Below, piece by piece: positions 23,503-64,000 of a stretch of DNA of 64,000 nt. Both the position numbers and the translations under genes were made by a program. The notes below the pieces were generated by a model. That model had not been told where the DNA came from and made no database searches. It was given only the letters and a program-made list of their open reading frames with translations. The stretch spans positions 973,615 to 1,037,614 of the forward strand of contig JAYQJO010000001.1 of assembly GCA_038142205.1 (NCBI GenBank), written 5' to 3'. This DNA is from Pseudomonadota bacterium (lineage in GTDB: Bacteria; Pseudomonadota; Gammaproteobacteria; Eutrophobiales; Eutrophobiaceae). Each line of letters begins with the position of its first letter. Positions within the stretch are counted from its first letter, which is position 1.

Positions 23503-23636
23503 ATGACACACCTCTTTAGGTTTTATAATTGTATTCTTTAAGTATGTCGATGATACGCCTAAAAATACAAAATAATAACCATGTTTATAACAAGGTTAAT
23601 TCAAGAAGTGCTTTTATACTGCTACTTTTAGCAAAT

Positions 23637-48878: not shown

Positions 48879-48949
48879 TTGACCTTTGAAGATTTAATCT
48901 GACTTGGATTAACGAAAAGCAGAACATTATACTGTAAGCTATTAATTTG

Positions 48950-48969
48950 AGATAGTATTTTGACTATCT
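48950..48969. promoter_or_regulatory. Palindrome in the divergent mptG/fwdD promoter region
   Basis: AGATAGT-N6-ACTATCT. Confidence 0.35.
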
Positions 48970-49038
48970 TTTATTCTTTCTTAAATAGAATTTGTCCTTA
49001 ATCAATAGACCAGACTATAATCAACGACAATTTAGAAT

Positions 49039-49398
49039 TTGGGGAAATCTGTGGCGGTAAAAATGATTCTTGTTCCTGTTCGCTCAAGTAAGCAAGGCAC
49101 TTCTTTAAATGAGGGTAAACTCAAAGAAGAATATATCAAAGTAACTTCTACTCTTGAGATGAACCCTGATGACATGTCAAAACTTAAATTAGTTGATGGC
49201 GATGAAGTTCGTTTAAAAAACGAAATTGGAGAAACAATTGTTCGCTGCATTGCAAAGAAACCAGAAGAATTACCAGCTGGGACACTCTTTCTCCCCTATG
49301 GCCCACCATCTAGTCAACTAATGGATAGTGATACTGCTGGTAGCGGCATGCCCCTATCCAAGCATATGGAAGTAGAAATTGAGAAAATAGTCAGTTAA
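49039..49398 (+). CDS. fwdD: Formylmethanofuran dehydrogenase subunit D (molybdopterin dinucleotide-binding)
   Basis: RSSKQG, MNPDDM..GDEV, LFLPYGP, T.GSGMPLSK..VEIE; directly upstream of fwdB; exact start uncertain. Confidence 0.85.
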   Translation: MGKSVAVKMILVPVRSSKQGTSLNEGKLKEEYIKVTSTLEMNPDDMSKLKLVDGDEVRLKNEIGETIVRCIAKKPEELPAGTLFLPYGPPSSQLMDSDTAGSGMPLSKHMEVEIEKIVS

Positions 49399-49438
49399 AC
49401 GCATACTATGGGCCTGGATTACACTGAGGTGAGTTCGA

Positions 49439-50798
49439 ATGAGTGAAAATATCAAGATTGTTAAAGATGCCACATGTACCTTTTGTGGCTGTGTTTGTGA
49501 CGATATGGAGCTTCATGTCGATGTTGAAGAAAAACGTATCGTTAAAGCTAAAAAGGCCTGTATTCTCGGAAAGGCTTGGTTTTTAGAACACACAATCGAA
49601 GACGCTCCAGCAGCAATGATTGACGGAAAAGAAGTCTCTGTTGAAGAAGCCATTGAAGAAGCCGCTCAAACTCTGGTAAATGCAAAGTTTCCTATTACCT
49701 ATGGACTTAGTGACACAACAAGTGAAGCTCAGCGACAAGCAGTAGCAATTACCGACTACATTCATGGAAGTATTGATACCACTACATCCGTCTGCCATGG
49801 TCCATCTGGTCTGGCATTCCAGGGAATTGGTGAAAGTACCAGTACCCTTGGAGAGGTCAAAAATAGAGCGGATTTGGTCATCTATTGGGGGGGGAATCCT
49901 GCAGAATCTCATCCTCGCCACTTTGGACGCTATGCCGTTACAGCCAAAGGTATGTTTACTCCTGGCGGTAAGAAAGACAGAACGATTGTAATGGTGGATG
50001 TACGCAAAACGAAAAGTTCTCCGGTTGCTGATATTAATAACACCAAAATTAGGTAAAGATTTTGAAGTGTTGTGGGCACTTCGAGCATTAGTAAAAGGTA
50101 AAAAATTAGCAGATAATATTGAAGAAGTGACAGGCGTTCCTCTTGAAACATTAGAAGATCTCGCTGATCGTATGAAAAACTGTAAGTTTGGTGTTTTATT
50201 CTTTGGTATGGGCCTTACTATGACCCGAGGCCGTCACTTCAATTCAGGCGCCCTTCTCGCATTAGCGACTGATTTAAATGAATTTACACATTTTGTTGCT
50301 AAACCTGTTCGTGGTCATGGAAATGTAACCGGAGCAGATAACGTTGTTTCATGGCAAACAGGCTATCCATTTGGCGTTAATTTTAGCCGTGGTTACCCTC
50401 GTTTTAATCCAGGCGAATTTACCACTGTAGACACCTTATCTAACGGTCATGCTGATGCCGCATTAATTATTGCGTCCGACCCTGGTTCTAATTTCCCGAA
50501 AAAAGCGATTGACCATCTGAAGAGTATTCCTGTGGTAGCGCTAGATACCAAACGTACCGAAACAACGAAAGACGCGCACGTTGCATTCAAAACATCAACT
50601 TATGGTATTAATACTGCTGGTACCGCATACCGTATGGATGATGTTCCTATAACACTGAGACCGGCATTTGAATCACCTTTTCCAGATGATGAATCCATTT
50701 TGATAGGTATTAAAAAACGCGTGCAAGAACTAATGCTGGCTAAGCATCAGGCAAGTGGAGCAAGCGGCGAAGCAAAAGTCGCTGCAAAAGTACTTTAA
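49439..50798 (+). CDS. fwdB: Formylmethanofuran dehydrogenase Mo/W catalytic subunit B (frameshift near 50035)
   Basis: CTFCGCVCDD..C Fe-S motif, TTSVCHGPS, TLGEVKNRAD, WGGNPAESHPRH, RGHGNV, WQTGYPF, GTAYRMD. Confidence 0.9.
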
Positions 50799-50996
50799 TT
50801 TGACGCTACTTTAATTTTAATTACGACATAATCGTGATAGATTTATAGAATAATTTTTTTGAATTACTGAGACCATTTACGAGAATTACAAACTAAACTT
50901 AATAGTTATTATTTAATACTATTTTGGTTAGAGAACTTCAATAAACAGTCATCGTAAAATTACTCAAAATATAACTAGAATATTTAGGGGTATTTG

Positions 50997-52637
50997 ATGG
51001 CAGCTTCAATGCGCATCATCAATGGCAAGGTTTATGACCCTGCTAATGGTATCGATGGCAAGATAAAAGAAATTTGCATTAAAGACGGTAAGATCGTCGA
51101 GTCAGCTGCAGATGATGCAACAGTCATTGATGCACAAGGTATGGTCATTATGCCTGGTGCAGTAGACATTCATTGCCACATTGCCGGCACCAAAGTAAAC
51201 GCTTCAAGAAAACTGCAACCCGAGGATCATCGGCATGATGTTCATCCTGGAACACCATTTACACGTTCAGGTACGGGCGGCACTGTTCCGTCAACATTTG
51301 CTACTGGTTATCGTTACGCTACTTTAGGTTATACAACCGCAATGGAAGCTGCTGCTACGCCTATCGGCGCACGTCATACCTTAGAAGAATTTCATGACAC
51401 ACCTGTCATAGATAAAGGCTTTTATGTTTTACTTGCTAACAATATTTTCTTGCAGCAGCTACTCCGTGATAAGCGAACTGAAGAATTTGATCAAGCACTT
51501 GCCTGGTGGATTAATGCGACAAAGGCCTACACGGTAAAATTGGTTAACCCAGGTGGCGATGAACCATGGAAAGGTAAAAAGAATTCCAACGTCGCTGATA
51601 TCGATGAAAAAAACGATGAAGATCTATCGCCTCGTCAAATTATCGAAGCCTTTATCACTTCAGCTAACAAACAAGGTTTCCCAAAGCCACCTCATATTCA
51701 CTGTAATAACTTGGGACACAGTGGCAATTACATTACAACACTAGAAACAATGAAAACTGCGGGGGACCAACGTGTTCATCTTGCACATATTCAGTTCCAC
51801 AGTTACGGCGGCGAATTAGGTAAGAATCCAAATTCAAAAGCAAAAGAAATCATTGAATATATAAATGAACATCCCAATATCACCTGCGATGTAGGCCAAG
51901 TTATGTTTGGTAAAGCAACCATCATGACGGCGGATGCACCATTAGCTTATGTATTGAAAGGTCATACCAAAGGTAAATGGATAAATGCAGATACAGAGTG
52001 TGAAAGTGGTTGCGGCATCGTACCTTTCAATTATCAAGAGCACATTTTCATACATACACTCCAATGGGCAATTGGCTTGGAATTATTCCTGATGTCAAAA
52101 GATCCCTGGCGCGTACTTTTATCAACCGATCATCCTAATGGCGGTTCGTTTATGAGTTATCCAAAATTGATTAAATTGTTAATGGATAAGTCATTCAGAC
52201 GCGAAGAAATGAAACGCGTTAATCAAAGCGCACTAGACCACTGTTCGCTACGAGATTTGGAACGTGAATATACATTGAATGAAATCGCGATTATTACCCG
52301 TGCTGGACCAGCTAAAGTACTGGGCTTGAAAAACAAAGGTCATTTAGGTGCAGGAGCGGATGCAGACATTACCATTTATGATGAAATGGAAGATAAGGAA
52401 ATGATGTTTAATGCGCCGCGCTATGTCATTAAATCTGGTCATACTATTATTGCAAACCATGAATTCGTAACTGACTTTATCGGCAAACAACTACATATAG
52501 AACCTGAGTATGACAATAAAATCGAAGAAGTGTTGAAACCTTTCTTCGAAAGTTACTATTCCATTGAATTTTCCAATTATGCTGTTAACGATAGTTACTT
52601 GCATGATCATGAAATTATTCCGTGTAAGAAAGTATAA
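50997..52637 (+). CDS. fwdA: Formylmethanofuran dehydrogenase amidohydrolase subunit A (copy 1)
   Basis: DIHCH, KLVNPGG, HIHCNNLG, HLAHIQF, QWAIGLE, STDHPNGG. Confidence 0.92.
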   Translation: MAASMRIINGKVYDPANGIDGKIKEICIKDGKIVESAADDATVIDAQGMVIMPGAVDIHCHIAGTKVNASRKLQPEDHRHDVHPGTPFTRSGTGGTVPSTFATGYRYATLGYTTAMEAAATPIGARHTLEEFHDTPVIDKGFYVLLANNIFLQQLLRDKRTEEFDQALAWWINATKAYTVKLVNPGGDEPWKGKKNSNVADIDEKNDEDLSPRQIIEAFITSANKQGFPKPPHIHCNNLGHSGNYITTLETMKTAGDQRVHLAHIQFHSYGGELGKNPNSKAKEIIEYINEHPNITCDVGQVMFGKATIMTADAPLAYVLKGHTKGKWINADTECESGCGIVPFNYQEHIFIHTLQWAIGLELFLMSKDPWRVLLSTDHPNGGSFMSYPKLIKLLMDKSFRREEMKRVNQSALDHCSLRDLEREYTLNEIAIITRAGPAKVLGLKNKGHLGAGADADITIYDEMEDKEMMFNAPRYVIKSGHTIIANHEFVTDFIGKQLHIEPEYDNKIEEVLKPFFESYYSIEFSNYAVNDSYLHDHEIIPCKKV

Positions 52638-52639
52638 GC

Positions 52640-53533
52640 ATGAAAATTAAATCAACCGAAATAGTCGATACATTTGCCGAAGCATTCAAAATGTATGGCA
52701 GCCGAATTATTATCACGGCGGAAACGAAAGAATGGGCAATGGCTGCCGCTCAATCAATAACCGGGTTTGCGACTTCAGTTATTGGTTGTAAATGTGAAGC
52801 AGGCATAGAAACAGAGATTTCTGCTGATGACTCACCTGACTTAAGACCCGGTGTTAGCGTTTTAATGTTTGCCATGGATGCAGAAAGCTTAGGCAAACGT
52901 TTAATGGAACGCATAGGCCAATGTGTCATGACCTGCCCTAGTACGGCCTGTTATAACGGATTAAATGAAGGGATGCCTGTCACTGTTGGTGGACAATTAC
53001 GCTACTTTGGCGACGGTAATCAAAGCAGTAAAGTCATGGGAGACAATAAATTTTGGCGTATACCCGTTATGGATGGCGAATTCCTTATTGAGGATTCTTT
53101 TAAGGTTCAGGAATCTGTCGGTGGCGGAAATATTTTAATTCTCGGTAAAAACCAAAAGGCCACACTCAAGGCTGCCAGTGCGGCAACCAAAGCCATGCGT
53201 ACTTTACCTGATATTATCCTACCCTTTCCGAATGGCGTTGTTCGAATCGGTAGTAAAGTCGGTTCAAGATATAAATCATTAATCGCTTCGACCAACCATG
53301 CATATTGTCCAACTCTGCGTGGCGTTGTTAAAAAATCAGAGTTAGGCGGTGACATTAATAGCGTCCTTGAAATCGTTATTGATGGTTTAAGTCCTGAAGC
53401 CGTTGAAGAAGCCATGCGTGTCGGTATGAATGCAGCTTCAAAACCGGGTATCAAACAGATATCTGCAGGTAATTATGGTGGCGATCTTGGTCAATACCAT
53501 TTGAAATTACATCAAATATTAGGAGCTGCATAA
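52640..53533 (+). CDS. ftr: Formylmethanofuran:H4MPT formyltransferase (copy 1)
   Basis: DTFAEAF, GFATSVIGC, RIGQCVMTCP, GSKVGS, EIVIDG, SAGNYGG. Confidence 0.93.
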   Translation: MKIKSTEIVDTFAEAFKMYGSRIIITAETKEWAMAAAQSITGFATSVIGCKCEAGIETEISADDSPDLRPGVSVLMFAMDAESLGKRLMERIGQCVMTCPSTACYNGLNEGMPVTVGGQLRYFGDGNQSSKVMGDNKFWRIPVMDGEFLIEDSFKVQESVGGGNILILGKNQKATLKAASAATKAMRTLPDIILPFPNGVVRIGSKVGSRYKSLIASTNHAYCPTLRGVVKKSELGGDINSVLEIVIDGLSPEAVEEAMRVGMNAASKPGIKQISAGNYGGDLGQYHLKLHQILGAA

Positions 53534-54345
53534 TGGCTCTAACACTCAAGTTACACACGCAACCGGATGTGCCGCTAGAAGCAGACTGCATTAGCCCTGA
53601 TCGACTTCAATCTTTAAGTCATTCAGAAGTTGCTTCTCAAACCGTATTCCATGGTAATCGTCAGGTGCCACTGGGTGAATTCTTTGATTGCTCAGGTAAG
53701 TTTGATGGTGAAATTGTTATTGATGGTGACTGTAACAAGATAAAACACATCGGTTCTGTTATGTCATTTGGCAAAATAACGGTTGAAGGTAATGTCGGCG
53801 TGCATACTGGCGCAGTGATGCGTGGCGGAGAGATTCTTATTAATGGTGATGCCAGTGATTGGGTTGGGCCTGAAATGCTGGGAGGAAGAATAACTGTCAA
53901 AGGTAATGCCGGGCACATGATAGGCAGCGGTTACCGAGGTAGCACAGTGGGTATGCAAGGCGGTGAAATTATTGTTCACGGCAATGTAAAAAATGAAACC
54001 GGCCATGTCATGCGACGCGGTTTGATTGTCGTTGGTGGTGACTCAGGTGATTTTACCGGCGTTAACATGCTTGCAGGTACTATTATTGTCCTGGGGCAAA
54101 TGGGCATTAGAACAGGCGCTGGAATGAAACGAGGCACTGTTATTAGTCTTCAAAAAGCGGAAATGATCCCGACCTTTAGTCATAGCTGCCAATATCACCC
54201 CTCTTTTATTCGTTATTATTATAGATACTTAAAAACGTTGGGACTCAATATCGATGAAACATTTCTGAATGGAATGTTTGAGCGTTGGTGTGGAGATTCA
54301 ATTGAATTAAATCGAGGAGAAATTCTTTTATACGCAGGAAAATAA
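53533..54345 (+). CDS. fwdC: Formylmethanofuran dehydrogenase subunit C (copy 1)
   Basis: ISPDRL, GxGxG beta-helix repeats, MRRG, GAGMKRGT, GEIL. Confidence 0.92.
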   Translation: MALTLKLHTQPDVPLEADCISPDRLQSLSHSEVASQTVFHGNRQVPLGEFFDCSGKFDGEIVIDGDCNKIKHIGSVMSFGKITVEGNVGVHTGAVMRGGEILINGDASDWVGPEMLGGRITVKGNAGHMIGSGYRGSTVGMQGGEIIVHGNVKNETGHVMRRGLIVVGGDSGDFTGVNMLAGTIIVLGQMGIRTGAGMKRGTVISLQKAEMIPTFSHSCQYHPSFIRYYYRYLKTLGLNIDETFLNGMFERWCGDSIELNRGEILLYAGK

Positions 54346-54392
54346 ACATCATCACCAGAGAATGCCTTTAAAGGCAATGAGGAGACAAAACG

Positions 54393-54698
54393 ATGACTAC
54401 AATCGTAACTGAAAACTGTAAAAACTGCCGTTTTACTGACTGTGTAACCGTATGCCCGGTCGCTTGCTTCCATTATGACGATGAAATGTTATATATCGAT
54501 CCAGATACATGTATCGATTGCAGCGCTTGTATTCCGGAATGCCCTGTTCAGGCAATTTTTGAGGGTGATGATATTCCAGAAGATCAAGAACATTGGATTG
54601 AAATTAATGCTGAGAAAGCAGCTTCACTGCCGGTTTGTGAAGAGCAAATGGAACCCTTAGCTGGAGCCGAAGAACGTAAAGCTGAATTAGGTTTTTAA
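54393..54698 (+). CDS. fdxA: Dicluster FdI/FdxA-type ferredoxin
   Basis: CKNCRFTDCVTVCP and CIDCSACIPECP; GAGGAG RBS. Confidence 0.9.
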   Translation: MTTIVTENCKNCRFTDCVTVCPVACFHYDDEMLYIDPDTCIDCSACIPECPVQAIFEGDDIPEDQEHWIEINAEKAASLPVCEEQMEPLAGAEERKAELGF

Positions 54699-54721
54699 CT
54701 TAACAATAAAATTAAAATAAT

Positions 54722-56104
54722 ATGTCAACTTTAGGAACAAATGAGAACCCTTTATTAATTGCAATAGTAGGTAGTGGCCCAAGCGGTTTCTATGCAGCAG
54801 AAGCGCTCATAAAATCAGACATTAAAACAAAAGTAGACATGTTAGAGCGTCTTCCCTCTCCTTATGGGCTTGTCAGAAGTGGAGTCGCACCTGACCATCA
54901 AAAGTTAAAACAAGTGATAGCGCTTTATCAAAAGACATCTAGTTCACCGGATTTTAATTTAATTGCTAACGTTAATGTTGGCGAAGATATTTCAGTCGAA
55001 GAACTTTGCCAATCACATCATGCTGTGATTATGACTTCAGGTGCAGAGACAGATAGAAAATTAGGTGTGCGTGGAGAAGATTTATCTGGAAGTTATACCG
55101 CAACGGAATTTGTCGGTTGGTATAACGGTCACCCAGATTATAGAGATCGTCAATTTGATCTCTCTCATGACGTTGCTGTAATTATTGGCCAAGGTAATGT
55201 TGCAGCAGACGTAAGTCGTATATTGGCAAAAACAGTTGATGAATTAAAACATACAGACATAGCACAACATGCACTTGATGCTCTGGCAGAAAGTAAAATA
55301 AAGGAAATTCATGTCATTGGGCGGCGTGGTCCAGCACAAGCCAAATTTACACCAAAAGAATTACGTGAATTTGGTGAACTCTCCGACTGTAATTCTATTG
55401 TTCGAGAAGAAGATATGCCTCTTAATCCCGAAAGCGAAACAGAGTTGCTGGAAAAAAGTAACATTGCAAGTAAAAAAATCTATGATCAATTTTGCGATTT
55501 TTCTAAACGTGAAATTGACACCTCAAAATCAAGAAATTGTCATTTTAGTTTTCTTATGGGGCCAAAAGAATTGGTAGGTGAATCAAAACTGGAAAAAGTA
55601 ATCCTGGAAAAAAATCAATTATCAGGTAATGCATTTAAACAATCGGCACGAGGAACAGGAGAAACGGTAGAACTTGAAACTGGAATACTATTTCGAAGTA
55701 TCGGTTATCGTGGCGTTCCTATAAGTGGTGTTCCATTTCATGATAGCTGGGGAACTATTCCTAATGAAAAAGGAAGAATTACCGATAACGATGGTAACCT
55801 AGTACCAAAACTTTATACCGCAGGCTGGATAAAACGCGGACCAAGTGGAATTATTGGTACTAATCGTGCGTGCAGTGTTGAAACAGTAGAAAGCTTACTG
55901 GAAGATTTAAATAAATTAGATGATGGCACAAGTAAAGCTGGTGCGGCAAAAATTTATTCAATACTAGATGACAAACAGATACAACATGTTAGTTTTAATG
56001 ATTGGGAAAAAATAGATAGAAAAGAAATTGAAGCTGGAGAGTCTAAAGATAAACCTCGCGAAAAATTCACATATATTAATGAGATGTTATCAATTATCAA
56101 GTAA
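54722..56104 (+). CDS. Ferredoxin-NADP+ reductase, adrenodoxin-reductase/FprA type
   Basis: GSGPSG, PYGLVRSGVAPDH, FVGWYNGHP, GQGNVAAD, GRRGP, GWIKRGPSGIIGTN. Confidence 0.92.
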   Translation: MSTLGTNENPLLIAIVGSGPSGFYAAEALIKSDIKTKVDMLERLPSPYGLVRSGVAPDHQKLKQVIALYQKTSSSPDFNLIANVNVGEDISVEELCQSHHAVIMTSGAETDRKLGVRGEDLSGSYTATEFVGWYNGHPDYRDRQFDLSHDVAVIIGQGNVAADVSRILAKTVDELKHTDIAQHALDALAESKIKEIHVIGRRGPAQAKFTPKELREFGELSDCNSIVREEDMPLNPESETELLEKSNIASKKIYDQFCDFSKREIDTSKSRNCHFSFLMGPKELVGESKLEKVILEKNQLSGNAFKQSARGTGETVELETGILFRSIGYRGVPISGVPFHDSWGTIPNEKGRITDNDGNLVPKLYTAGWIKRGPSGIIGTNRACSVETVESLLEDLNKLDDGTSKAGAAKIYSILDDKQIQHVSFNDWEKIDRKEIEAGESKDKPREKFTYINEMLSIIK

Positions 56105-56134
56105 AGTGATTTAATCTAAATCATTCTCTTTTTT
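56105..56134 (+). terminator. Weak terminator-like hairpin after the reductase
   Basis: AGTGATTTA-ATC-TAAATCATT followed by CTCTTTTTT. Confidence 0.4.
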
Positions 56135-56253
56135 AGACTAAAATAATAATAAGAACAGTGAAGCGGCTAATAATAATTGGCGCAAACTAATTTTTGTTGT
56201 AACGCGTTTTGCAACACTTTAATTATAAAAAATTAAAAACCTAGGATTTATCG

Positions 56254-57531
56254 TTGGAAGAAAATACAAACTATAACGGCACTGTCACGAAAAATGTTTC
56301 TTGTCCATTTTGCGGGATACTGTGCGATGATCTTGTCATTCAAAATGAAGAAAACCATTTAAAAGTTTTAAAAAATGGTTGCCTAAAGTCAAAAGCGATT
56401 ATTCAAAAAGATATAGCAAAAGCTTCTGCTCAGCTTAAAGGTAAAAATGTTTCTCTTGATGAGGCAATTGATCATGCTTCTAATATTTTGAAAAAATCAC
56501 ATGCGCCTCTTTTTGCAGGTTTAGGTACTGAAGTTTCAGGTATGCGTAAAGTCATGGAATTAGCAGATAAAACAGGGGCGATTCTTGATCATATGCACGG
56601 TGATGGTTTAATTCGTAACATACTAGTACTACAAGATCTTGGCTGGTTAACTACAACTATGGCCGAAATCAAAAACCGGGCTGATCTAGTTATTTTTGCG
56701 GGCACCGATGCAACAAACTTCCCAAGGTTCTATGAACGCGTTATTTGGAATAAAAATTCAATGTTCATAAAAAATAGTGAAGAAAAAGATATCGTTTATA
56801 TAGGAGACAATCTGGATAGCAAACCAGGCATCAGTCCAAATGGAAAACGCCCGATACATTTAAAATGCAAAACAGAAGAAATTGGTGAAATTATTTCAAG
56901 CTTACACGCACTTGCTTCCGAAGCGACATTGGATGTTAAAGAAGTTGCCGGAATTAAAATAAGCACACTGAAAGCATTAGCAGAAAAGATGAAAACTACT
57001 AAGTACGGCGTTATAGTCTGGGCACCAAGCGAACTCGATATTCCTCATGCAGAGCTTACCATTCAAAACTTCTGTGAAACGGTTAAGTATCTAACTCGTT
57101 TTACTCGCTTTGCCGGTTTTTCCTTAGGTGGCAATGATGGCGGCATGAGTGCTATTGGTGTTAGTGCATGGCAAAGCGGCTACCCTTTACGTGTTAATTT
57201 TAATAAAGGTTACCCAGACTATGATGCGCATCGATATTCAACAAAAAATGTATTAAGGAATAAAGAAGTTGACGCCCTGCTCTGGGTATCCAGTTTTGAA
57301 TCAGAAAAAACACCTCCTAAAGCCTCTATACCAACAATTGTGCTAGGCAACCCTGGATACAAATTAGGTTTTAAACCAGATGTTTTTATTCCTGTTGCGA
57401 CCCCAGGCGTTGATCATACTGGACAAATAATCCGTACAGACAGTGTTGTATCACTTCCATTAAAACAACTAAGACACTCCCCTTATGAAAGTGTTCATTC
57501 AATACTCAAACAAATTATAGTCAGGCTCTAG
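56254..57531 (+). CDS. fhcB: Formyltransferase/hydrolase complex subunit B (non-catalytic FwdB homologue)
   Basis: CPFCGILCDD retained, but ILDHMHGDG replaces the Cys-His ligand motif and LGGNDG replaces RGHxNV; EIKNRAD, WQSGYP. Confidence 0.9.
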   Translation: MEENTNYNGTVTKNVSCPFCGILCDDLVIQNEENHLKVLKNGCLKSKAIIQKDIAKASAQLKGKNVSLDEAIDHASNILKKSHAPLFAGLGTEVSGMRKVMELADKTGAILDHMHGDGLIRNILVLQDLGWLTTTMAEIKNRADLVIFAGTDATNFPRFYERVIWNKNSMFIKNSEEKDIVYIGDNLDSKPGISPNGKRPIHLKCKTEEIGEIISSLHALASEATLDVKEVAGIKISTLKALAEKMKTTKYGVIVWAPSELDIPHAELTIQNFCETVKYLTRFTRFAGFSLGGNDGGMSAIGVSAWQSGYPLRVNFNKGYPDYDAHRYSTKNVLRNKEVDALLWVSSFESEKTPPKASIPTIVLGNPGYKLGFKPDVFIPVATPGVDHTGQIIRTDSVVSLPLKQLRHSPYESVHSILKQIIVRL

Positions 57532-57540
57532 GTTGAATTA

Positions 57541-59195
57541 ATGTATACAAAATTAACAAACGGAAAAATCTACGATCCTGTTCACGGGATAAACGGAGAA
57601 CACCGGGATATTTATATTCGTGATGGTTACATCACACGAAAACCTTCTGCTAATGTAAAAATAGATCAAACCTTTGACATGAAAGGTAAGATTATTATGG
57701 CTGGAGCTATCGATATACACACTCATATTGGTGGCGGCAAAGTTAATATCGCCCGAATGATGTTACCTGAAGATCACGAAGCTGACTTGGTAAGCAAAAC
57801 AAACATAACGCGTTCTGGCTGTGGCAATGCTGCACCTTCTACCTTGACCGCTGGCTATCGCTATGCCGAGATGGGATACACTGCTTGTTTTGAACCGGCG
57901 ATGTTACCAACAAATGCACGTCAAACACATATGGAAATGGCAGATACCCCAATGGTTGATAAAGGCGCCTATGCCTTGATTGGTAGCGATGATTTTTTCT
58001 TACGCATGATGGCTTCAAAAAAAGAGCAAGCCGCAATCAGCGACTATGTTGGTTGGATAATTAACGCAACACAAGCATTAGGTATAAAGGTTGTTAACCC
58101 TGGTGGAATCAATGCATTCAAATTTAATCAACGTAAACTTGATTTGGATGAACAAAACTCGCATTACGGCGTATCACCTCGACAAATTTTAATCGCATTA
58201 GCTAGAGCTGTAACAGAATTAGGTATTCCCCATCCATTACATGTACATGGCTGTAACCTAGGTGTGCCCGGCAATGTAGAAACTACACTAGAAACTATTC
58301 GGGCGGCAGAAGGCATGCGCATGCATATAACACATATTCAGTTCCACAGTTACGGAATTGAAGGGGACAGAAAGTTTTCATCTGGCGCAGCTGAAATTGC
58401 AGAGGCAATTAATAAAAACCCGAATATTTCTGTCGATGTTGGCCAAATTCTATTTGGGCAGACTGTTACTGCTTCTGGTGATGCTATGCACCAATATGAA
58501 AGTCATTGGCATGCTCATCCAAAAAATGGGTGGTGATGGATATTGAATGTGATGCGGGTTGTGGTGTTGTTCCATTTAAATATCGCGACAAAAACTTTGT
58601 TAATGCATTGCAGTGGGCTATTGGCCTTGAGTTATTTTTACTTATTGATGATCCATGGCGAGTTTTCCTGACGACCGATCATCCTAATGGCGCCCCTTTT
58701 ACCAGCTATCCACACTTAATTCGCTTGCTGATGGATAAAAGCTTTAGAAACGATATGCTTTCTACAATTAACAAAGATTCAGCTGCGAGCAGTACACTTG
58801 CAAGTATAGATAGAGAATATTCCCTGTATGAAATTGCTATCATGACTCGAGCTGCACCAGCAAGAAGCCTGGGTTTAAAAAATCGCGGTCATTTAGGTTC
58901 TGGCGCGATAGCTGATATCACGGTTTACACTGAACAAAAAAATAAAGAAAAAATGTTCAGTACGCCTGACTATGTTTTCAAAGATGGTGAAGTCATTGTG
59001 AAAAAAGGGAAAATTAGCAAAGTTGTTCATGGTGGAACACATACTTTAAGGCCTGAATTTGATATGGGAATTGAAAAATCACTAAAACGTTATTTCGATC
59101 AATATCAAACAATGAGCCTTGGAAATTTTAAAATAGATGATGATGAAATTGTTGAACATGGCAATAGTAAAATTATTGTTCAACCTTGCATGTAA
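57541..59195 (+). CDS. fhcA: Formyltransferase/hydrolase complex subunit A (frameshift at A6 58521-58526)
   Basis: DIHTHIGGGK, KVVNPGG, HVHGCNLG, HITHIQF, then ECDAGCG, QWAIGLE, TTDHPNG. Confidence 0.93.
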
Positions 59196-59204
59196 AATAA
59201 AGTC

Positions 59205-60104
59205 ATGAAAATTAACGGTGTAGAAATTGTAGATACGTTTGCGGAAGCTTTCCCTATGAAAGCAACTCGCATAATCATAACGGCTATGACATTAAAGTGG
59301 GCCTACCAAGCAGCGAACGCAATTCGCGGCTTTGCCTCTTCTGTTATTGCTTGTGGTATTGAGGCAGATATAGAACGGGAACTGACTCCATCAGAAACTC
59401 CTGATGGGCGCCCAGGTATTTCGGTCATGATATTCGCCATGTCGCTTAAAGAACTGGAAAAACATGTCCCGACACGCGTGGGACAATCCGTTATGACTAC
59501 AGCAACAACAGCTTGTTTTTCTGGGATAGACGATGCTACTCAAAAAGTATCAATGGGAAAAAGTTTACGTTTTTTTGGAGATGGTTATCAGATTTCAAAG
59601 ACAATAGGTAATAAACGTTTTTGGAGAATTCCTGTAATGCATGGCGAATTTATCTGTGAAGAAACATCAGGCGTAACTAAAGCTATTGGTAGTGGTAATT
59701 TTCTTGTTTTTGCGAAAACAGCACGTCAGGGGCTGGCCGCATGCGAAAAAGCAGTCGATGAAATTCAAAAGCTCCCGGGTGTCATCACCGCTTTTCCTGG
59801 TGGTGTCGTAGGTTCCGGCTCAAAAGTGGGTTCGAAATATAGCTATCTAACAGCGTCAACAAATGAAGCATACTGCCCTACTTTAAAAGGCCAAGTTAAT
59901 TCGGCATTAAGTGATGATGTTGGCTCTGTCCTGGAAATTGTTATTGATGGTTTATCTGAAGAATCAATTAATGAAGCAATGCGCATCGGTATTAAAGCAG
60001 CGTGCTCATTCGGTGCAGTGAAAGGTATCTGTAGCATCAGTGCCGGCAACTACGGTGGTAATCTGGGGCCTCATTTATTTCATTTAAGGAAGCTATTGAA
60101 ATGA
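59205..60104 (+). CDS. fhcD: Formyltransferase/hydrolase complex subunit D (formyltransferase copy 2)
   Basis: DTFAEAF, TPDGRPG, GSKVGSKY, EIVIDG, SAGNYGG. Confidence 0.93.
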   Translation: MKINGVEIVDTFAEAFPMKATRIIITAMTLKWAYQAANAIRGFASSVIACGIEADIERELTPSETPDGRPGISVMIFAMSLKELEKHVPTRVGQSVMTTATTACFSGIDDATQKVSMGKSLRFFGDGYQISKTIGNKRFWRIPVMHGEFICEETSGVTKAIGSGNFLVFAKTARQGLAACEKAVDEIQKLPGVITAFPGGVVGSGSKVGSKYSYLTASTNEAYCPTLKGQVNSALSDDVGSVLEIVIDGLSEESINEAMRIGIKAACSFGAVKGICSISAGNYGGNLGPHLFHLRKLLK

Positions 60105-60934
60105 GCGCATTGACACTGACATTAAAGTCTCACCCTAAATTCACGCTAGACATGTCTCCTATTACGCCAGACAAGTTGCAGGATTTATCACTCGAAAAAA
60201 TTAAAAAATTAAAATTGGGCTATGGCAAGAAAACAGTAAAAGTAGAAGCATTGTTTGCTGTAAAAGGTCGTGATAAAAATAATATTGTCATTAATAAAAG
60301 TCATAGCCAGCTTATATGTATTGGCAAAGAAATGAGCATGGGAAAAATTACAGTGAAGGGTGATGTTGGTGACTTTCTGGGACAGTTGATGAAAAAAAAT
60401 GGTGAAATCACAGTGCACGGCAATGCTGGCTCATGGGCTGGAAATGGAATGTCCGGTGGCCGCATTAACGTAATTGGTAATGTGCTCGATTATGCAGGTG
60501 GAGGTTTACCCGGCAACGCATTCGGTATGACTAATGGCTTAATTAATATTACCGGTAATGCTGGTGATCGAGTTGGCGATCGTATGCGACGTGGCATTAT
60601 TGTTATTCAAGGGAAATCAGGGGACTTTTGTGGAAGTCGAATCCATGCCGGAACCATTATCGCTTTGGGTAAAGTAGGAAAAAACCCCGGTGAAGGTATG
60701 CGACGAGGAACAGTCATACTCGCTAAAAAACCCGCGCATATCTCTTCTACATTTAAAAGTTGTGGTAATCTTAAAATGCAGTTTTTACGCTTACTTTTTA
60801 CACAATTGTCAAAAATAGATGATTGTTTTCAGTTTTTTAGTAAGTACGGACCTGAAGCCCATCGCTTTGCAGGCGATATAGCAAGAAATGGCAAAGGTGA
60901 AATATTAATTTTACAAACTATGAATAAAAGATAA
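60101..60934 (+). CDS. fhcC: Formyltransferase/hydrolase complex subunit C
   Basis: LDMSPITPD, GDRMRRG, GMRRGT, GD..GKGEI. Confidence 0.92.
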   Translation: MSALTLTLKSHPKFTLDMSPITPDKLQDLSLEKIKKLKLGYGKKTVKVEALFAVKGRDKNNIVINKSHSQLICIGKEMSMGKITVKGDVGDFLGQLMKKNGEITVHGNAGSWAGNGMSGGRINVIGNVLDYAGGGLPGNAFGMTNGLINITGNAGDRVGDRMRRGIIVIQGKSGDFCGSRIHAGTIIALGKVGKNPGEGMRRGTVILAKKPAHISSTFKSCGNLKMQFLRLLFTQLSKIDDCFQFFSKYGPEAHRFAGDIARNGKGEILILQTMNKR

Positions 60935-60937
60935 GCA

Positions 60938-62605
60938 ATGAAACGTACTCGTGGTAAGAAAGGCCGAATACTTGGCAGGGTCATGGATCAACATGCACTA
61001 TTACAAGTGCAGGAACTGATAGGTGACGAAGCAAAAACTCGTGATATGTTGATAGAGCACCTGCATAAGATACAGGATAAGTATCATCATATTTCCAACA
61101 GACATATTCTTGCACTGGCTAAGGAAATGAACTTACCAATGGCAGAAGTTTATGAGACAGCCACGTTTTATCATCACTTTGATGTTACGAAAGAAGGTGA
61201 AATTCCACCACCATCTATAACATTGCGCGTTTGTGAGTCAGTAAGTTGTGAAATGTTTGGTGCGAAAAAACTCATTGAAGAGTTGGGACCAGAAATAGAC
61301 AAGAAAAAAGTTCGAATCCAGCCTGTTCCTTGTGTAGGTCGTTGTGCAGCAGCGCCTGTTGCTGTGTTGGGCACTAACCCTATCGAAAAAGCAAATAAAG
61401 AATCGGTTATAGCGGCTATAGAAAATAAAAAATTAACTGATTCACTCCCTGAAAACTATATTGATTACAACACCTATAAAGAACAAAGCGGATATAAAAC
61501 ACTTGTTGATTGCATCAATGGCAAATATCAGCCAGAAGACATAATCGCTACTTTGGAAGACTCAAACATACGTGGTTTAGGTGGAGCAGGCTTTCCTATT
61601 GGTCGTAAATGGCAAATATTAAGTAAGCAAAAAGAACCTAAGATGATTGCAATAAATATTGATGAAGGAGAACCCGGCACATTTAAAGATCGATATTATC
61701 TGGAAACCGATCCTCATCGTTTTATTGAAGGGACTTTAATTGCACATTGGGCAATAAAAGCCAAAGATGTTTATATCTATCTACGCGATGAATATGCCGG
61801 TTGTCGAATGATGTTAGAAAAAGAACTAAAAGCACTTAAGAGTAATCCGCCTTGTGAATTACCGGAGATACATCTGCGTCGTGGTGCAGGCGCTTATATC
61901 TGTGGTGAAGAGTCGGCCATGATTGAATCAATTGAAGGTAAACGCGGCATGCCACGCCTGCGGCCACCTTATCTAGCAGAAGTAGGATTATTTGGTCATC
62001 CTACACTTGAGCAAAACATGGAGAGTATGCACTGGATAAGAGACATCATAGAAAAAGGTGCTGATTGGTTTTCATCTAACGGTCGACGCGATAGAAAAGG
62101 CCTCCGTTCATTCTCTGTTAGCGGCCGTGTAAATAAACCAGGCGTTCATCTAGCACCTGCAGGTATTAGCATGCGTGAATTAATTGATGAGTATTGCGAT
62201 GGCATGATAAATGGGCACGAATTCTACGGTTATTTTCCTGGGGGCGCTTCTGGTGGAATATTACCGGCTTCTCTTGGAGATGAACCATTAGATTTCGATA
62301 CATTACAAAAACACGGTTGTTTTATTGGTTCTGCCGCAATCGTCGTGTTATCTAACAAAGATAGTGCTAAAGAAATGGCATTAAATTCAATGCGTTTCTT
62401 TGAAGATGAATCTTGTGGTCAATGTACACCATGTCGTGTTGGTACAGAAAAGGCCGTAAAGCTCATGGAAAAAGATGAATGGGATCAACCTCTATTAGAA
62501 GAATTATCTTCTGCCATGATCGATGCTTCTATTTGTGGCCTTGGTCAAGCTGCCCCGAATCCATTACGTTGCGCAATGAAATATTTTCCAGAGGAATTTG
62601 AATAA
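60938..62605 (+). CDS. NAD-dependent formate dehydrogenase beta subunit (NuoE/NuoF-like, Fdh1B type)
   Basis: LIEHLHKIQD, CESVSC..CVGRC 2Fe-2S, GLGGAGFP, DEGEPGTFKD, GAYICGEE, ESCGQCTPCR..SICGLG. Confidence 0.92.
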   Translation: MKRTRGKKGRILGRVMDQHALLQVQELIGDEAKTRDMLIEHLHKIQDKYHHISNRHILALAKEMNLPMAEVYETATFYHHFDVTKEGEIPPPSITLRVCESVSCEMFGAKKLIEELGPEIDKKKVRIQPVPCVGRCAAAPVAVLGTNPIEKANKESVIAAIENKKLTDSLPENYIDYNTYKEQSGYKTLVDCINGKYQPEDIIATLEDSNIRGLGGAGFPIGRKWQILSKQKEPKMIAINIDEGEPGTFKDRYYLETDPHRFIEGTLIAHWAIKAKDVYIYLRDEYAGCRMMLEKELKALKSNPPCELPEIHLRRGAGAYICGEESAMIESIEGKRGMPRLRPPYLAEVGLFGHPTLEQNMESMHWIRDIIEKGADWFSSNGRRDRKGLRSFSVSGRVNKPGVHLAPAGISMRELIDEYCDGMINGHEFYGYFPGGASGGILPASLGDEPLDFDTLQKHGCFIGSAAIVVLSNKDSAKEMALNSMRFFEDESCGQCTPCRVGTEKAVKLMEKDEWDQPLLEELSSAMIDASICGLGQAAPNPLRCAMKYFPEEFE

Positions 62606-64000
62606 TGGCTGCGAATCCTAAGCTCATGAATGAAAAATCAATCAGTTTCAAACTTAATGGTGAAGAAGTTGAAGCATACGGCGACGAAACTATTCTCCAA
62701 GCAGCAAAACGTAATGATGTAGAAATTCCTCACCTTTGTTTTAAAGAAGGATATCGACCGGATGGGAACTGTCGAGCATGTATGGTTGAAATTAATGATG
62801 AACGTGTTTTAGCACCCTCCTGTTGTCGTCAACCAACAGAAGGCATGGAAGTTAAAAGTGATAGTGAGAGAGCACAAAATTCTCAAAAAATGATTTTAGA
62901 ATTACTACTCGCAGATATGCCTCAACAAGGGAAGTCTCCGTATAAATTAGATTCTGAGCTGGATTACTGGGTTGATAAAATGGGTATTTATAATCCACGT
63001 TTTGAAGCAAATAAAGATCAACCAAGCCCAGATCTATCTCACCCTGCAATAGCTGTTAATTTAGATGCGTGTATTCAATGTACGCGATGTGTCAGAGCCT
63101 GCCGTGAAGAACAGGTTAACGATGTTATTGGTTACGCTTTTCGAGGAAAACATTCAGAAATTGTTTTTGATATGGCGGAACCTATGGGTGAAAGCACCTG
63201 TGTCGCTTGCGGCGAATGTGTGCAAGCCTGCCCTACTGGCGCATTGATGCCCGCTAAAAATGTTGGGCTTATTGAGCCAGATAAAGTCGTTGACTCAGTT
63301 TGTCCATACTGCGGTGTTGGTTGTCTACTAAGCTTCAATGTTAAGAACAATCATATTCAATATGTAGAAGGTCGTGATGGCCCATCAAATAAAGGCCGAT
63401 TGTGTGTTAAGGGTCGATATGGTTTTGATTACATCCATCATCCAGATCGATTAACTAAACCATTAATTCGTCGAGAAGGTGTAGAGAAGACAGCCGCTTT
63501 AATTGATCCACTGGAAATGCACAAATATTTTCGTGAAACAACCTGGGAAGAAGCTTTAGAGTTTGCCGCCGAAGGCTTGAATAAGATTAAAAATGAAAAA
63601 GGTTCACAGGCGCTTGCTGGACTTGGTTGTGCAAAAGGCAGTAACGAAGAAGCTTATTTAGTACAAAAATTAGTACGAACCGGTTTTGGCACAAATAACA
63701 TTGATCATTGCACCCGGCTTTGTCATGCATCTTCAGTAGCGGCCTTATTGGAAACAATTGGATCTGGGGCTGTTTCAAATCAAGTCTCTGATGGTTCATT
63801 CGCCGAAGTAATAATTGTTATTGGCGCCCGACCTAATGATAACCATCCTGTAGCAGCTACCTTCATCAAGAATGCAGCTGAACGCGGCAGTAAATTAATC
63901 GTAATAGAACCCTATGGCTCTGATATGTCTTTACATGCCTCTCATTTCATGCAGTTACGTCCTGGCACGGATGTTTTGTTATTAAATGCCATGATGCATG
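62605..64000 (+). CDS. Mo/W formate dehydrogenase alpha subunit (Fdh1A type; runs off window)
   Basis: Manual translation from ATG 62605: IPHLC..GNCRACMVE..C, CIQCTRCVRAC, CVACGECVQACP, CPYCGVGC, NNIDHCTRLCHASS (Cys ligand). Confidence 0.93.
   Translation, partial: MAANPKLMNEKSISFKLNGEEVEAYGDETILQAAKRNDVEIPHLCFKEGYRPDGNCRACMVEINDERVLAPSCCRQPTEGMEVKSDSERAQNSQKMILELLLADMPQQGKSPYKLDSELDYWVDKMGIYNPRFEANKDQPSPDLSHPAIAVNLDACIQCTRCVRACREEQVNDVIGYAFRGKHSEIVFDMAEPMGESTCVACGECVQACPTGALMPAKNVGLIEPDKVVDSVCPYCGVGCLLSFNVKNNHIQYVEGRDGPSNKGRLCVKGRYGFDYIHHPDRLTKPLIRREGVEKTAALIDPLEMHKYFRETTWEEALEFAAEGLNKIKNEKGSQALAGLGCAKGSNEEAYLVQKLVRTGFGTNNIDHCTRLCHASSVAALLETIGSGAVSNQVSDGSFAEVIIVIGARPNDNHPVAATFIKNAAERGSKLIVIEPYGSDMSLHASHFMQLRPGTDVLLLNAMMH

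What the first reader, a model, noticed from the sequence alone, without database searches (positions are those of the whole stretch)
54393..56104. Ferredoxin + FprA-type NADP+ reductase standing in for FwdF/FwdG
Seen: directly after fwdC (47- and 23-bp gaps) lie an FdI-type ferredoxin and an adrenodoxin-reductase-like flavoprotein with the NADP-type GxGxxA and GRRG motifs. No polyferredoxin gene is present in the cluster. Established: archaeal Fwd uses FwdF/G as its electron wire, and mycobacterial FprB fuses these same two domain types. Inference: electrons flow FwdB to Fd to FNR to NADPH, giving an NADPH-producing C1 oxidation branch beside the NADH-producing Fdh. NADPH-driven CO2 reduction is thermodynamically less plausible.
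Basis: partly seen in the sequence, partly recalled or inferred. Interest (0 to 1): 0.75.

Follow-up and report, generated by a model that had tools for sequence, protein, structure and literature searches.

The report
Ferredoxin/NADP-reductase partners of bacterial Fwd
A methanol-oxidising gammaproteobacterium carries an archaeal-style, metal-dependent formyl-methanofuran dehydrogenase whose usual iron-sulfur wire is replaced by a small ferredoxin and an NADP-linked flavoprotein, a gene partnership kept in many related bacteria that probably lets them oxidise the last bound C1 intermediate straight to CO2 while making NADPH.

Summary
Directly after fwdC (gaps of 47 and 23 bp) lie a 101-aa FdI-type 7Fe ferredoxin and a 460-aa FprA/adrenodoxin-reductase-type flavoprotein. 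The cluster has no polyferredoxin gene.

The upstream fwdD-fwdB-fwdA-ftr-fwdC set is a true redox-type Fwd. FwdB keeps the [4Fe-4S] cysteines, the Cys-His active site and the Arg, and FwdD is present. The second set downstream (fhcBADC) has lost Cys-His and Arg.

- All 11 same-genus loci keep fwdC-fdx-fpr.
- 39 of 80 Fpr-centred genome loci are Fwd-linked, in two different gene orders.
- Of 20 FwdB-bearing genomes in a 400-genome class sample, 19 have the Fpr orthologue.
- 35 of 43 informative FwdB-centred metagenome loci have fdx-fpr adjacent.
- Four complete genomes show only this FwdB and no separate FhcB.

The link is separable, though. One congener keeps Fwd and Fdx without Fpr, four records keep fdx-fpr without Fwd, and seven metagenome loci have Fwd without either nearby.

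Electron flow from Fwd to Fd to Fpr to NADP+ remains inferred. In this assembly fwdB is frameshifted, as are fhcA and mch.

I found no paper describing this pairing. I rate it a new variant of a known kind.

The parts
49039..49398 (+). fwdD, the molybdopterin 'fourth domain' subunit
   Evidence: PF01568 at E 4e-12. NF042908 FwdD at E 1.1e-20, 74 bits, which is below the curated cut-off of 175. Orthologues sit directly before fwdB in relatives.
49439..50798 (+). fwdB, the catalytic W/Mo-pterin subunit. It is read in two frames as assembled (49439-50056 and 49998-50798), with the frameshift near 50030.
   Evidence: TIGR03129 covers positions 2-193 (228.8 bits) and 198-421 (258.5 bits). The translation has CTFCGCVCDD, SVCHGPS and PVRGHGNVTG. 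An orthologue aligns to M. wolfeii FwdB (5t5i_B) at E 4.9e-109. The break is a 2-nt loss relative to 4 relatives.
50994..52637 (+). fwdA, the amidohydrolase subunit
   Evidence: TIGR03121 at 694.5 bits, cut-off 392.75.
52640..53533 (+). ftr, formyl-MFR:H4MPT formyltransferase, encoded inside the fwd operon
   Evidence: NF002554 at 429.2 bits, cut-off 297; PF01913 and PF02741.
53533..54345 (+). fwdC
   Evidence: TIGR03122 at 269.4 bits, cut-off 130.65.
54393..54698 (+). fdx, a dedicated FdI-type 7Fe ferredoxin paralogue
   Evidence: PDB 1frk at E 1.4e-28. FdI cysteine pattern. NF045490 at 114.3 bits, below the cut-off of 135. The genome's other FdxA, at G000:C1:305450-305737, scores 160.9 bits and is 48% identical.
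54722..56104 (+). fpr, an FprA/adrenodoxin-reductase-type NADP(H):ferredoxin oxidoreductase
   Evidence: PDB 1lqt at E 3.9e-102 and 1cjc at E 9.2e-92. GxGxxG, GxGxxA and GRRG motifs. It is the only FprA-type match in the genome; the second hit is GltD-like at E 6.7e-10.
56254..60934 (+). Context: fhcB (56254-57531), fhcA (57541-59195, frameshift near 58520), fhcD (59205-60104) and fhcC (60101-60934), the hydrolytic formate-releasing set
   Evidence: FhcB lacks the Cys-His and Arg but keeps the N-terminal cysteine motif. The fhcA break is a 1-nt loss in a poly-A run relative to 6 relatives.
60938..63999 (+). Context: NuoE-NuoF fusion (60938-62605) and FdhA (62605 to the window end), an NAD-type formate dehydrogenase
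   Evidence: PF01512, PF01257 and PF10589 for the fusion; TIGR01591 at E 4.8e-73 for FdhA.

Best explanation
The first cluster encodes a redox-active bacterial formyl-methanofuran dehydrogenase with its own formyltransferase (FwdD, FwdB, FwdA, Ftr, FwdC). It takes the formyl group from formyl-H4MPT onto methanofuran/methylofuran and oxidises it to CO2 at the W/Mo-pterin of FwdBD.

The two electrons leave through the N-terminal [4Fe-4S] cluster of FwdB to the dedicated 7Fe ferredoxin. That ferredoxin takes the place of the archaeal FwdG/FwdF polyferredoxins. The FprA-type flavoprotein then reoxidises it and reduces NADP+ to NADPH.

This gives a formate-free, NADPH-yielding end to the H4MPT pathway. 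It runs in parallel with the neighbouring Fhc (hydrolysis to formate) plus NAD-type formate dehydrogenase.

Shown here: gene identities, cofactor motifs, and conserved linkage and co-occurrence. Inferred: that Fd docks on FwdB, the oxidative direction, and NADP+ as the final acceptor.
For: 1. Anatomy. The genes are tightly spaced on one strand, and fdx and fpr follow fwdC by 47 and 23 bp.

2. FwdB is redox-competent. It has the four [4Fe-4S] cysteines, the Cys-His and the Arg aligned to M. wolfeii FwdB, and FwdD is present. The paralogous FhcB lacks Cys-His and Arg.

3. No other Fe-S carrier gene is in the cluster.

4. Fpr-centred view. All 11 same-genus loci (L002-L012) show fwdC-fdx-fpr. Of 80 genome-contig loci, 36 have fwdC-fdx-fpr and 3 have fdx-fpr-fwdD-B-A, among them one titled Gemmatimonadales and one 'beta proteobacterium'. 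Twenty-eight more distant Fprs stand alone.

5. Tree of 75 Fprs. All Fdx-adjacent Fprs form one clade (SH-aLRT 99, 47 rows). A 35-row subclade (SH-aLRT 98) is Fwd-linked apart from L042 and two loci cut at a contig end.

6. FwdB-centred view, class sample of 400 scored genomes. True FwdB is in 20 genomes of 12 families besides G000. The Fpr orthologue is in 19 of those 20. The two genes lie on one contig within about 7 kb in 15 of 20, 13 with fpr downstream and 2 upstream. Without the four unpublished genomes the figures are 15 of 16 and 12 of 16.

7. Metagenome contigs, 80 FwdB-centred loci. Twenty-seven have fdx/fpr directly downstream, 8 directly upstream, 1 at 4.6 kb, and 7 have none with both sides assessable. 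The other 37 are not fully assessable.

8. Four complete single-contig genomes (G076, G277, G340, G423) gave only the true FwdB and no separate FhcB with the FhcB query, so this complex would be their only formyl-MFR enzyme.

9. The ferredoxin is a dedicated paralogue beside a canonical FdxA.

10. G013 keeps fwdDBA-ftr-fwdC-fdx but has no fpr. This points to Fd as the primary partner.

11. One 423-nt contig from an RNA library (X2, no differing letters over its 423 nt) spans the fwdC-fdx junction. This is weak: it is a contig only, and DNA carry-over is not excluded.

12. Precedent. The Fwd of Ca. Ethanoperedens is wired to an F420 reductase for the oxidative direction (PMC11493965, abstract read).

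13. Thermodynamics, recalled and not from any call. CO2/formyl-MFR is about -0.5 V, the FdI [3Fe-4S] about -0.42 V and NADP+/NADPH -0.32 V, so flow is downhill in the oxidative direction.
Against: No result here shows binding, electron transfer, direction or nucleotide specificity.

The link is separable:
- fdx-fpr is kept intact without a true FwdB in G404, G227 (L179), G143 (L180, with only fwdA remnants between fdx and fpr) and L042.
- fdx-fpr pairs with no C1 genes nearby occur in L046, L052, L055, L067 and L080.
- 7 of 43 informative metagenome loci, plus L166 on its assessable side, have Fwd with no fdx or fpr in the flanks. No substitute carrier is seen there.
- G034 has FwdB and no Fpr was found, but that genome is 75% complete and FwdB is near a contig end.

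Characterised FprA and adrenodoxin reductase work in the opposite sense, from NADPH to Fd (review passages).

In this assembly fwdB is frameshifted, so the enzyme may not be made in this strain if the break is real.
Confidence: 0.6

Rival explanations
1. fdx-fpr is a general NADPH-to-ferredoxin electron-supply cassette, as FprA/Fd is for P450s in mycobacteria. It serves some other reaction of the H4MPT/methanofuran island, such as cofactor biosynthesis or repair. On this reading Fwd uses another acceptor, for example the housekeeping FdxA.
For: fdx-fpr persists intact in the C1 island after loss of Fwd in G404, G227, G143 and L042. fdx-fpr pairs also exist without any C1 genes (L046, L052, L055, L067, L080). 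Known FprA enzymes act from NADPH to Fd. A canonical FdxA exists elsewhere in the genome. Seven informative Fwd loci lack the pair.
Against: The pair abuts the fwd genes in two different orders rather than any biosynthesis gene. 19 of 20 FwdB genomes carry the Fpr orthologue. No Afp/DmrB-type flavoprotein that might need such a donor was found in the genome; the only PF02441 hit is a 408-aa frame. In the Fwd-less cases the pair sits where deleting fwdD-to-fwdC would leave it.
Confidence: 0.15
2. The reverse direction, or maintenance. NADPH, Fpr and Fd deliver electrons to Fwd, either to reduce CO2 to formyl-MFR or to keep the oxygen-sensitive W/Mo centre reduced and activated in an aerobe.
For: This is the usual direction of FprA-type enzymes. 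The linkage data do not distinguish direction.
Against: NADPH-driven CO2 reduction to formyl-MFR is about 0.2 V uphill (recalled values), and no bifurcating module is encoded in the cluster. The organism has PQQ methanol-dehydrogenase-family genes and the oxidative H4MPT set (fae, mch). G013 does without Fpr.
Confidence: 0.12
3. In this particular genome the Fwd branch is a decaying pseudogene cluster, so the fdx-fpr pair is a leftover here.
For: fwdB carries a 2-nt deletion relative to 4 relatives, and not in a long homopolymer.
Against: Breaks also hit fhcA (a 1-nt loss in a poly-A run), mch and trhO (an in-frame stop) within the same 64 kb. That fits assembly error or genome-wide damage better than selective loss of Fwd. 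Both fwdB halves keep all their motifs. RNA-library contigs at 99% identity or more cover ftr, fwdC, fdx and fpr.
Confidence: 0.15

Closest known systems
Archaeal tungsten formyl-methanofuran dehydrogenase FwdABCDFG (Methanothermobacter wolfeii, PDB 5T5I)
   Same: FwdA, FwdB, FwdC and FwdD are homologous. FwdB aligns over its full length (E 4.9e-109) with the same [4Fe-4S] cysteines, Cys-His and Arg.
   Different: There is no FwdF or FwdG polyferredoxin. An FdI-type 7Fe ferredoxin and an FprA-type flavoprotein are encoded instead. An ftr gene lies inside the operon. The organism is bacterial and presumably works in the oxidative direction.
Formyltransferase/hydrolase complex Fhc of Methylorubrum extorquens (PDB 6S6Y; PMC6926001, passages read)
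   Same: The subunit logic of A, B, C and formyltransferase in one operon is the same, within the H4MPT pathway of methylotrophs. A true Fhc-like set lies directly downstream in the window.
   Different: The paper says FhcB lacks the pterin and Fe-S motifs and that FwdD is absent, so the complex releases formate. Here FwdB keeps all redox motifs and FwdD is present.
F420-reducing Fwd of Ca. Ethanoperedens thermophilum (PDB 8RJA; PMC11493965, abstract read)
   Same: It is an Fwd used for formyl-MFR oxidation whose electron outlet has been exchanged for a flavoprotein that reduces a two-electron hydride carrier. FwdB is similar at E 1.5e-106.
   Different: That system is archaeal and anaerobic, with a bound F420 reductase reached through an Fe-S bridge. 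Here a separate small ferredoxin and an NADP-type FprA-family enzyme are proposed, and the coupling is not demonstrated.
Mycobacterial FprA with 7Fe ferredoxins, and the Fd-FNR fusion FprB (Rv0886)
   Same: The same two protein families act as redox partners, and the natural fusion shows they work together.
   Different: In mycobacteria the flow is from NADPH to Fd to P450s. Here the proposed flow is the reverse, from a low-potential dehydrogenase to NADP+.

Membership tests
Redox-active formyl-methanofuran dehydrogenase (Fwd/Fmd) | FwdB N-terminal [4Fe-4S] cysteine motif | tested here: met
   CTFCGCVCDD plus a later Cys in the window. C13, C16, C20 and C41 are invariant in 32 orthologues and align to 5t5i_B.
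Redox-active formyl-methanofuran dehydrogenase (Fwd/Fmd) | Metal-ligand Cys (or Sec) followed by His, and the conserved Arg | tested here: met
   SVCHGPS and PVRGHGNVTG. C120, H121 and R293 are invariant. The residue roles are taken from passages of PMC6926001.
Redox-active formyl-methanofuran dehydrogenase (Fwd/Fmd) | FwdD subunit present | tested here: met
   PF01568 at E 4e-12. NF042908 at E 1.1e-20, though below the curated cut-off (74 against 175 bits).
Redox-active formyl-methanofuran dehydrogenase (Fwd/Fmd) | FwdA and FwdC subunits | tested here: met
   TIGR03121 at 694.5 bits (cut-off 392.75) and TIGR03122 at 269.4 bits (cut-off 130.65).
Redox-active formyl-methanofuran dehydrogenase (Fwd/Fmd) | FwdF/FwdG polyferredoxin electron wire | tested here: not met
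   No such ORF lies between 49039 and 56104. The only Fe-S protein there is the FdI-type ferredoxin.
Redox-active formyl-methanofuran dehydrogenase (Fwd/Fmd) | Intact fwdB reading frame in this genome | tested here: not met
   Two frames, from a 2-nt loss relative to 4 relatives. Whether this is an error or a real mutation is undecided.
Redox-active formyl-methanofuran dehydrogenase (Fwd/Fmd) | Formyl-MFR dehydrogenase activity and the metal used (W or Mo) | not testable with these tools
   Needs biochemistry.
FdI-type 7Fe ferredoxin (FdxA) | Cysteine pattern for one [3Fe-4S] and one [4Fe-4S] cluster, with the C-terminal extension | tested here: met
   C9, C12, C17, C21, C25, C40, C43, C46 and C50. 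Aligned over residues 4-94 to A. vinelandii FdI structures at E 1.4e-28. Which cysteine binds which cluster is recalled from the FdI literature.
FdI-type 7Fe ferredoxin (FdxA) | Reaches the NCBIfam equivalog cut-off for proteobacterial FdxA (NF045490) | tested here: not met
   114.3 bits against a cut-off of 135. The genome's other copy reaches 160.9 bits. This one is a divergent paralogue.
FprA / adrenodoxin-reductase-type NADPH:ferredoxin reductase | Full-length similarity to solved FprA and AdR | tested here: met
   1lqt at E 3.9e-102 over residues 10-458; 1cjc at E 9.2e-92.
FprA / adrenodoxin-reductase-type NADPH:ferredoxin reductase | FAD GxGxxG, NADP GxGxxA and GRRG motifs | tested here: met
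   GSGPSG, GQGNVA and GRRG, aligned to the same motifs of FprA. The reading of these as NADP-type is recalled.
FprA / adrenodoxin-reductase-type NADPH:ferredoxin reductase | NADP(H)-specific ferredoxin reductase activity | not testable with these tools
   Needs an assay.
Fhc (formyltransferase/hydrolase complex), considered for the first cluster | B subunit without catalytic Cys-His and Arg, and no D subunit | tested here: not met
   The first cluster has both, so it is not an Fhc. The second cluster (56254-60934) fits: it has HGDGLIRN in place of SVCHGPS and no Arg.

The most novel reading that the evidence does not exclude
Ftr-FwdABCD, the 7Fe ferredoxin and Fpr form one self-contained formyl-H4MPT:NADP+ oxidoreductase (CO2-forming). 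This would be a bacterial counterpart of the F420-wired archaeal Fwd. In several small-genome gammaproteobacteria it has fully replaced Fhc plus formate dehydrogenase, so that C1 oxidation runs to CO2 without free formate. Its reduced ferredoxin (about -0.4 V or lower) would also give aerobic methylotrophs a source of low-potential electrons that they were not known to have.
Probability: 0.3. Interest if true: 0.85.

Novelty: new variant of a known kind. Interest (0 to 1): 0.72.

Why it matters
Textbook bacterial methylotrophy ends the H4MPT pathway with the hydrolytic Fhc complex and free formate. Three papers bear on how unexpected a true Fwd in Proteobacteria is:
- A 2016 review states that fwdD is not present in Proteobacteria (PMC5020050, passage).
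- A 2020 phylogeny speaks of the absence of bacterial FwdB (PMC7331816, passage).
- A 2023 survey lists 149 bacterial FwdB hits but assigns them no function or partner (PMC10100899, passages).

A widespread proteobacterial Fwd with its own ferredoxin and NADP reductase would add several things. It would be a second, redox-conserving exit from the pathway, yielding NADPH or reduced ferredoxin instead of NADH. It would change carbon and redox budgets for marine methylotrophs and some symbiont-like small genomes. It would give a tractable, oxygen-exposed relative of the CO2-fixing archaeal enzyme for biochemistry. The hypothesis can be tested directly with three purified components.

Tried and rejected
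1. Complex prediction with FwdB, FwdD and Fdx, each given as an alignment. The result was no verdict: scores 0.19 and 0.12 against a mark of 0.32, and the controls were not run. It says nothing for or against binding.

3. Promoter and terminator scan of 48700-57000. Twenty-two promoter-like and 4 terminator-like sites were found, not above the shuffles (24.9 and 6.3). None lies between fwdC and the end of fpr on the + strand. Uninformative.

4. RNA-library contigs. They give only patchy cover. The parts of 52600-57600 without cover say nothing. No record spans fdx-fpr or the whole operon. The frameshift sites were outside the stretch laid.

5. The idea that Fdx/Fpr feeds an Afp/DmrB-type dihydromethanopterin reductase. 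The genome's only PF02441 hit is a 408-aa frame elsewhere, so there is no support.

6. A search for a substitute electron carrier beside Fwd clusters that lack fdx-fpr (35 flanking ORFs of 8 loci). No polyferredoxin or NuoEF-type module turned up. The only candidate is a convergent 1183-aa Pyr_redox_2 protein in L175.

7. Ten full-text literature searches. None returned a paper linking a bacterial Fwd to a ferredoxin/FprA pair. The 'FprA' hits were not opened; from recall, FprA in methanogens is the F420H2 oxidase, a different protein. Subscription journals and supplements were not searched.

8. Hps (TIGR03128) and PmoA (TIGR03080) were not found over the cut-off in the genome. The PmoA control rang nowhere, so that search is uninformative.
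Full report
**What is there**

The window is part of a 2.66-Mb single-contig genome of about 40% G+C. From 49039 to the window end, one strand carries the following:
- fwdD 49039-49398
- fwdB 49439-50798, in two frames
- fwdA 50994-52637
- ftr 52640-53533
- fwdC 53533-54345
- fdx 54393-54698
- fpr 54722-56104
- fhcB 56254-57531
- fhcA 57541-59195, in two frames
- fhcD 59205-60104
- fhcC 60101-60934
- a NuoE-NuoF fusion 60938-62605
- FdhA from 62605

Upstream on the other strand lie H4MPT/methanofuran biosynthesis genes, mch and fae.

The gaps before fdx and fpr are 47 and 23 bp. The ferredoxin matches Azotobacter FdI structures (E 1.4e-28) and has the FdI cysteine pattern. Fpr matches M. tuberculosis FprA (E 3.9e-102, residues 10-458) and adrenodoxin reductase (E 9.2e-92), with the GxGxxG, GxGxxA and GRRG motifs.

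**The first cluster is a true dehydrogenase and the second is not**

FwdB has CTFCGCVCDD, SVCHGPS and PVRGHGNVTG. In an intact orthologue these align to the [4Fe-4S] cysteines, Cys-His and Arg of M. wolfeii FwdB (E 4.9e-109), and they are invariant in 32 orthologues. FwdD is present.

The Fhc structure paper (PMC6926001, passages) names exactly these features (Cys118, His119, Arg288, FwdD) as what M. extorquens Fhc has lost. The window's FhcB has lost Cys-His and Arg. Unlike the description of M. extorquens FhcB, however, it keeps the N-terminal cysteine motif.

**Is the fdx-fpr pair tied to Fwd?**

Fpr-centred view. All 11 same-genus loci (L002-L012) have fwdC-fdx-fpr. The 80 genome-contig loci break down as follows:
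- 36 have fwdC-fdx-fpr.
- 3 have the other order, fdx-fpr-fwdD-B-A (L057 titled Gemmatimonadales, L058, L059).
- 8 have fdx-fpr without fwd in the locus. Of these, L047 and L054 are cut by contig ends and L042 has fhc only.
- 3 have a ferredoxin some kb away.
- 2 begin inside fpr.
- 28 more distant Fprs stand alone.

I built an Fpr tree of 75 rows. Six of 81 rows were dropped (L032, L047, L060, L061, L071, L075) because the match was split or shorter than 400 residues. The tree puts all Fdx-adjacent Fprs in one clade (SH-aLRT 99). A 35-row subclade (SH-aLRT 98) is Fwd-linked apart from L042 and two contig-cut loci. This was a quick search with no bootstrap.

FwdB-centred view, class sample. 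In an evenly drawn sample of the class (401 genomes, 400 scored), a true FwdB (72% identity or more to the N-terminal part) occurs in 20 genomes of 12 families besides G000. The Fpr orthologue (57% identity or more, or a fragment) occurs in 19 of those 20. The exception, G034, is 75% complete and has FwdB near a contig end. The two genes lie on one contig within about 7 kb in 15 of 20, 13 with fpr downstream and 2 upstream. In 4 they are on different contigs of fragmented assemblies. Four of these genomes (G063, G165, G319, G331) are unpublished. Without them the figures are 15 of 16 and 12 of 16. Kin are not independent, so I give no test statistic.

FwdB-centred view, metagenome contigs. Of 80 loci:
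- 27 have fdx/fpr directly downstream.
- 8 have it directly upstream.
- 1 has it 4.6 kb away.
- 7 have none although both sides are assessable.
- 1 has none downstream only.
- 17 have none upstream and are cut downstream.
- 19 are not assessable.

That is 35 of 43 fully informative loci with direct adjacency.

**Further pointers**

Four complete single-contig genomes (G076, G277, G340, G423) returned only the true FwdB when searched with the window's FhcB. There the Fwd-Fdx-Fpr set would be the only formyl-MFR enzyme.

The cluster ferredoxin is a divergent paralogue: NF045490 at 114.3 bits, below the 135 cut-off. A canonical FdxA scoring 160.9 bits lies elsewhere in the genome, and the two are 48% identical.

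Contigs of metatranscriptome libraries at 99% identity or more cover parts of ftr, fwdC, fdx, fpr and fhcB. One 423-nt contig spans the fwdC-fdx junction. This shows neither a single transcript nor the absence of DNA carry-over.

**Results against a strict coupling**

- G013, a 98%-complete congener, has fwdD-B-A-ftr-fwdC-fdx followed after about 380 bp by fhcB, and no Fpr orthologue anywhere.
- Conversely, G404, G227, G143 and L042 keep intact fdx and fpr without a true FwdB. In G143 only fwdA remnants lie between them.
- fdx-fpr pairs also occur with no C1 genes, for example in a Bradyrhizobium record.
- The flanks of Fwd loci without the pair show no substitute carrier.

My reading is that fdx-fpr is an older two-gene cassette that was recruited to Fwd. 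The ferredoxin is the core partner, and Fpr is a common but replaceable outlet.

**Mechanism proposed**

The formyl group passes from H4MPT to methanofuran/methylofuran through Ftr. It is released and oxidised to CO2 at FwdA and FwdBD. The electrons go through the FwdB [4Fe-4S] cluster to the 7Fe ferredoxin, then to the FAD of Fpr, then to NADP+.

The direction rests on recalled potentials: about -0.5 V for CO2/formyl-MFR, about -0.42 V for an FdI [3Fe-4S] and -0.32 V for NADP+. It also rests on the oxidative gene context (PQQ methanol-dehydrogenase-family genes, fae, mch).

The nearest precedent is the F420-wired Fwd of Ca. Ethanoperedens (PMC11493965, abstract). That FprA-type enzymes and 7Fe ferredoxins are partners, and occur fused as FprB, is stated in a review (PMC6469627, passages).

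**State of this genome**

fwdB has a 2-nt loss relative to 4 relatives, fhcA has a 1-nt loss in a poly-A run relative to 6 relatives, mch is frameshifted, and trhO has an in-frame stop. Four breaks in 64 kb, including in genes the pathway needs, fit assembly error or general damage better than selective decay of Fwd. I could not decide between these.

**Novelty**

Ten full-text searches found no description of this pairing. Earlier papers state that fwdD is not in Proteobacteria (PMC5020050) and that bacterial FwdB is absent (PMC7331816). A 2023 survey counts 149 bacterial FwdB hits without context (PMC10100899). Supplements and subscription journals were not seen.

**Verdict**

It is a new variant of a known kind, with interest 0.72.

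Noticed in passing
window 56254-57531 (fhcB); L014:9556-10830, L022:9688-10914, L020:9427-10665: FhcB of this lineage keeps the N-terminal CxFCxxxCDD...C motif shared with FwdB, while it has lost the Cys-His and Arg. The M. extorquens FhcB is described as lacking the whole Fe-S domain. This FhcB may therefore still bind a [4Fe-4S] cluster.
   Followed up: partly
window about 50030 (fwdB), about 58520 (fhcA), about 45470-45490 (mch), 9448-9450 (trhO): Three frameshifts and one in-frame stop fall in otherwise conserved genes within 64 kb. The fhcA break is a 1-nt loss in a poly-A run and the fwdB break is a 2-nt loss. Whether these are assembly errors or real damage is undecided.
   Followed up: partly
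L178 (G013:C15:8000-22000): A same-genus genome has fwdD-B-A-ftr-fwdC-fdx, then fhcB after about 380 bp. fpr is missing at the locus, and the genome is 98% complete with no Fpr orthologue.
   Followed up: yes
L180 (G143:C80:1-12000), L179 (G227:C4): fdx and fpr are intact without fwdB. In L180 two short fwdA C-terminal remnants lie between fdx and fpr. In L179 the order is mch, RFAP synthase, fdx, fpr, a 1.3-kb gap, then fhcBADC.
   Followed up: partly
L133, L153, L155, L161 (metagenome contigs): Merged clusters run fhcB-fhcA-fhcD-fwdD-fwdB-fwdA-(ftr)-fwdC-fhcC, with no fdx or fpr in the part held.
   Followed up: no
L131:4951-5250, L154:6314-6613: A second, more distant ferredoxin (50% identical to the window's Fdx) lies directly upstream of fwdD. 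L154 also has the usual fdx-fpr after fwdC.
   Followed up: no
L175:11395-14946 (-): A 1183-aa protein with a Pyr_redox_2 domain lies convergent to an Fwd cluster that has no fdx-fpr nearby. It could be another electron outlet.
   Followed up: no
G340:C1:738389-739285, G174:C1:154365-155261, G076:C1:1742335-1743213, G423:C1:599108-599989, G277:C1:1584881-1585777: Each of these genomes has a distant Ftr paralogue (36-37% identity) far from the fwd cluster.
   Followed up: no
G000 whole genome; G000:C1:1041620-1043389: Two PQQ methanol/ethanol-dehydrogenase-family genes score over the cut-off, one of them about 4 kb past the window end. No hexulose-phosphate synthase scores over the cut-off. The route of C1 assimilation is unclear.
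   Followed up: partly
window 21382-23511 (-), 24370-25233 (+), 29715-31052 (+), 3-1667 (+): Other genes in the window include a 709-aa molybdopterin oxidoreductase of the DMSO-reductase/Fdh superfamily, a MadB-family AAA ATPase, a radical SAM protein and a class I PHA synthase.
   Followed up: no
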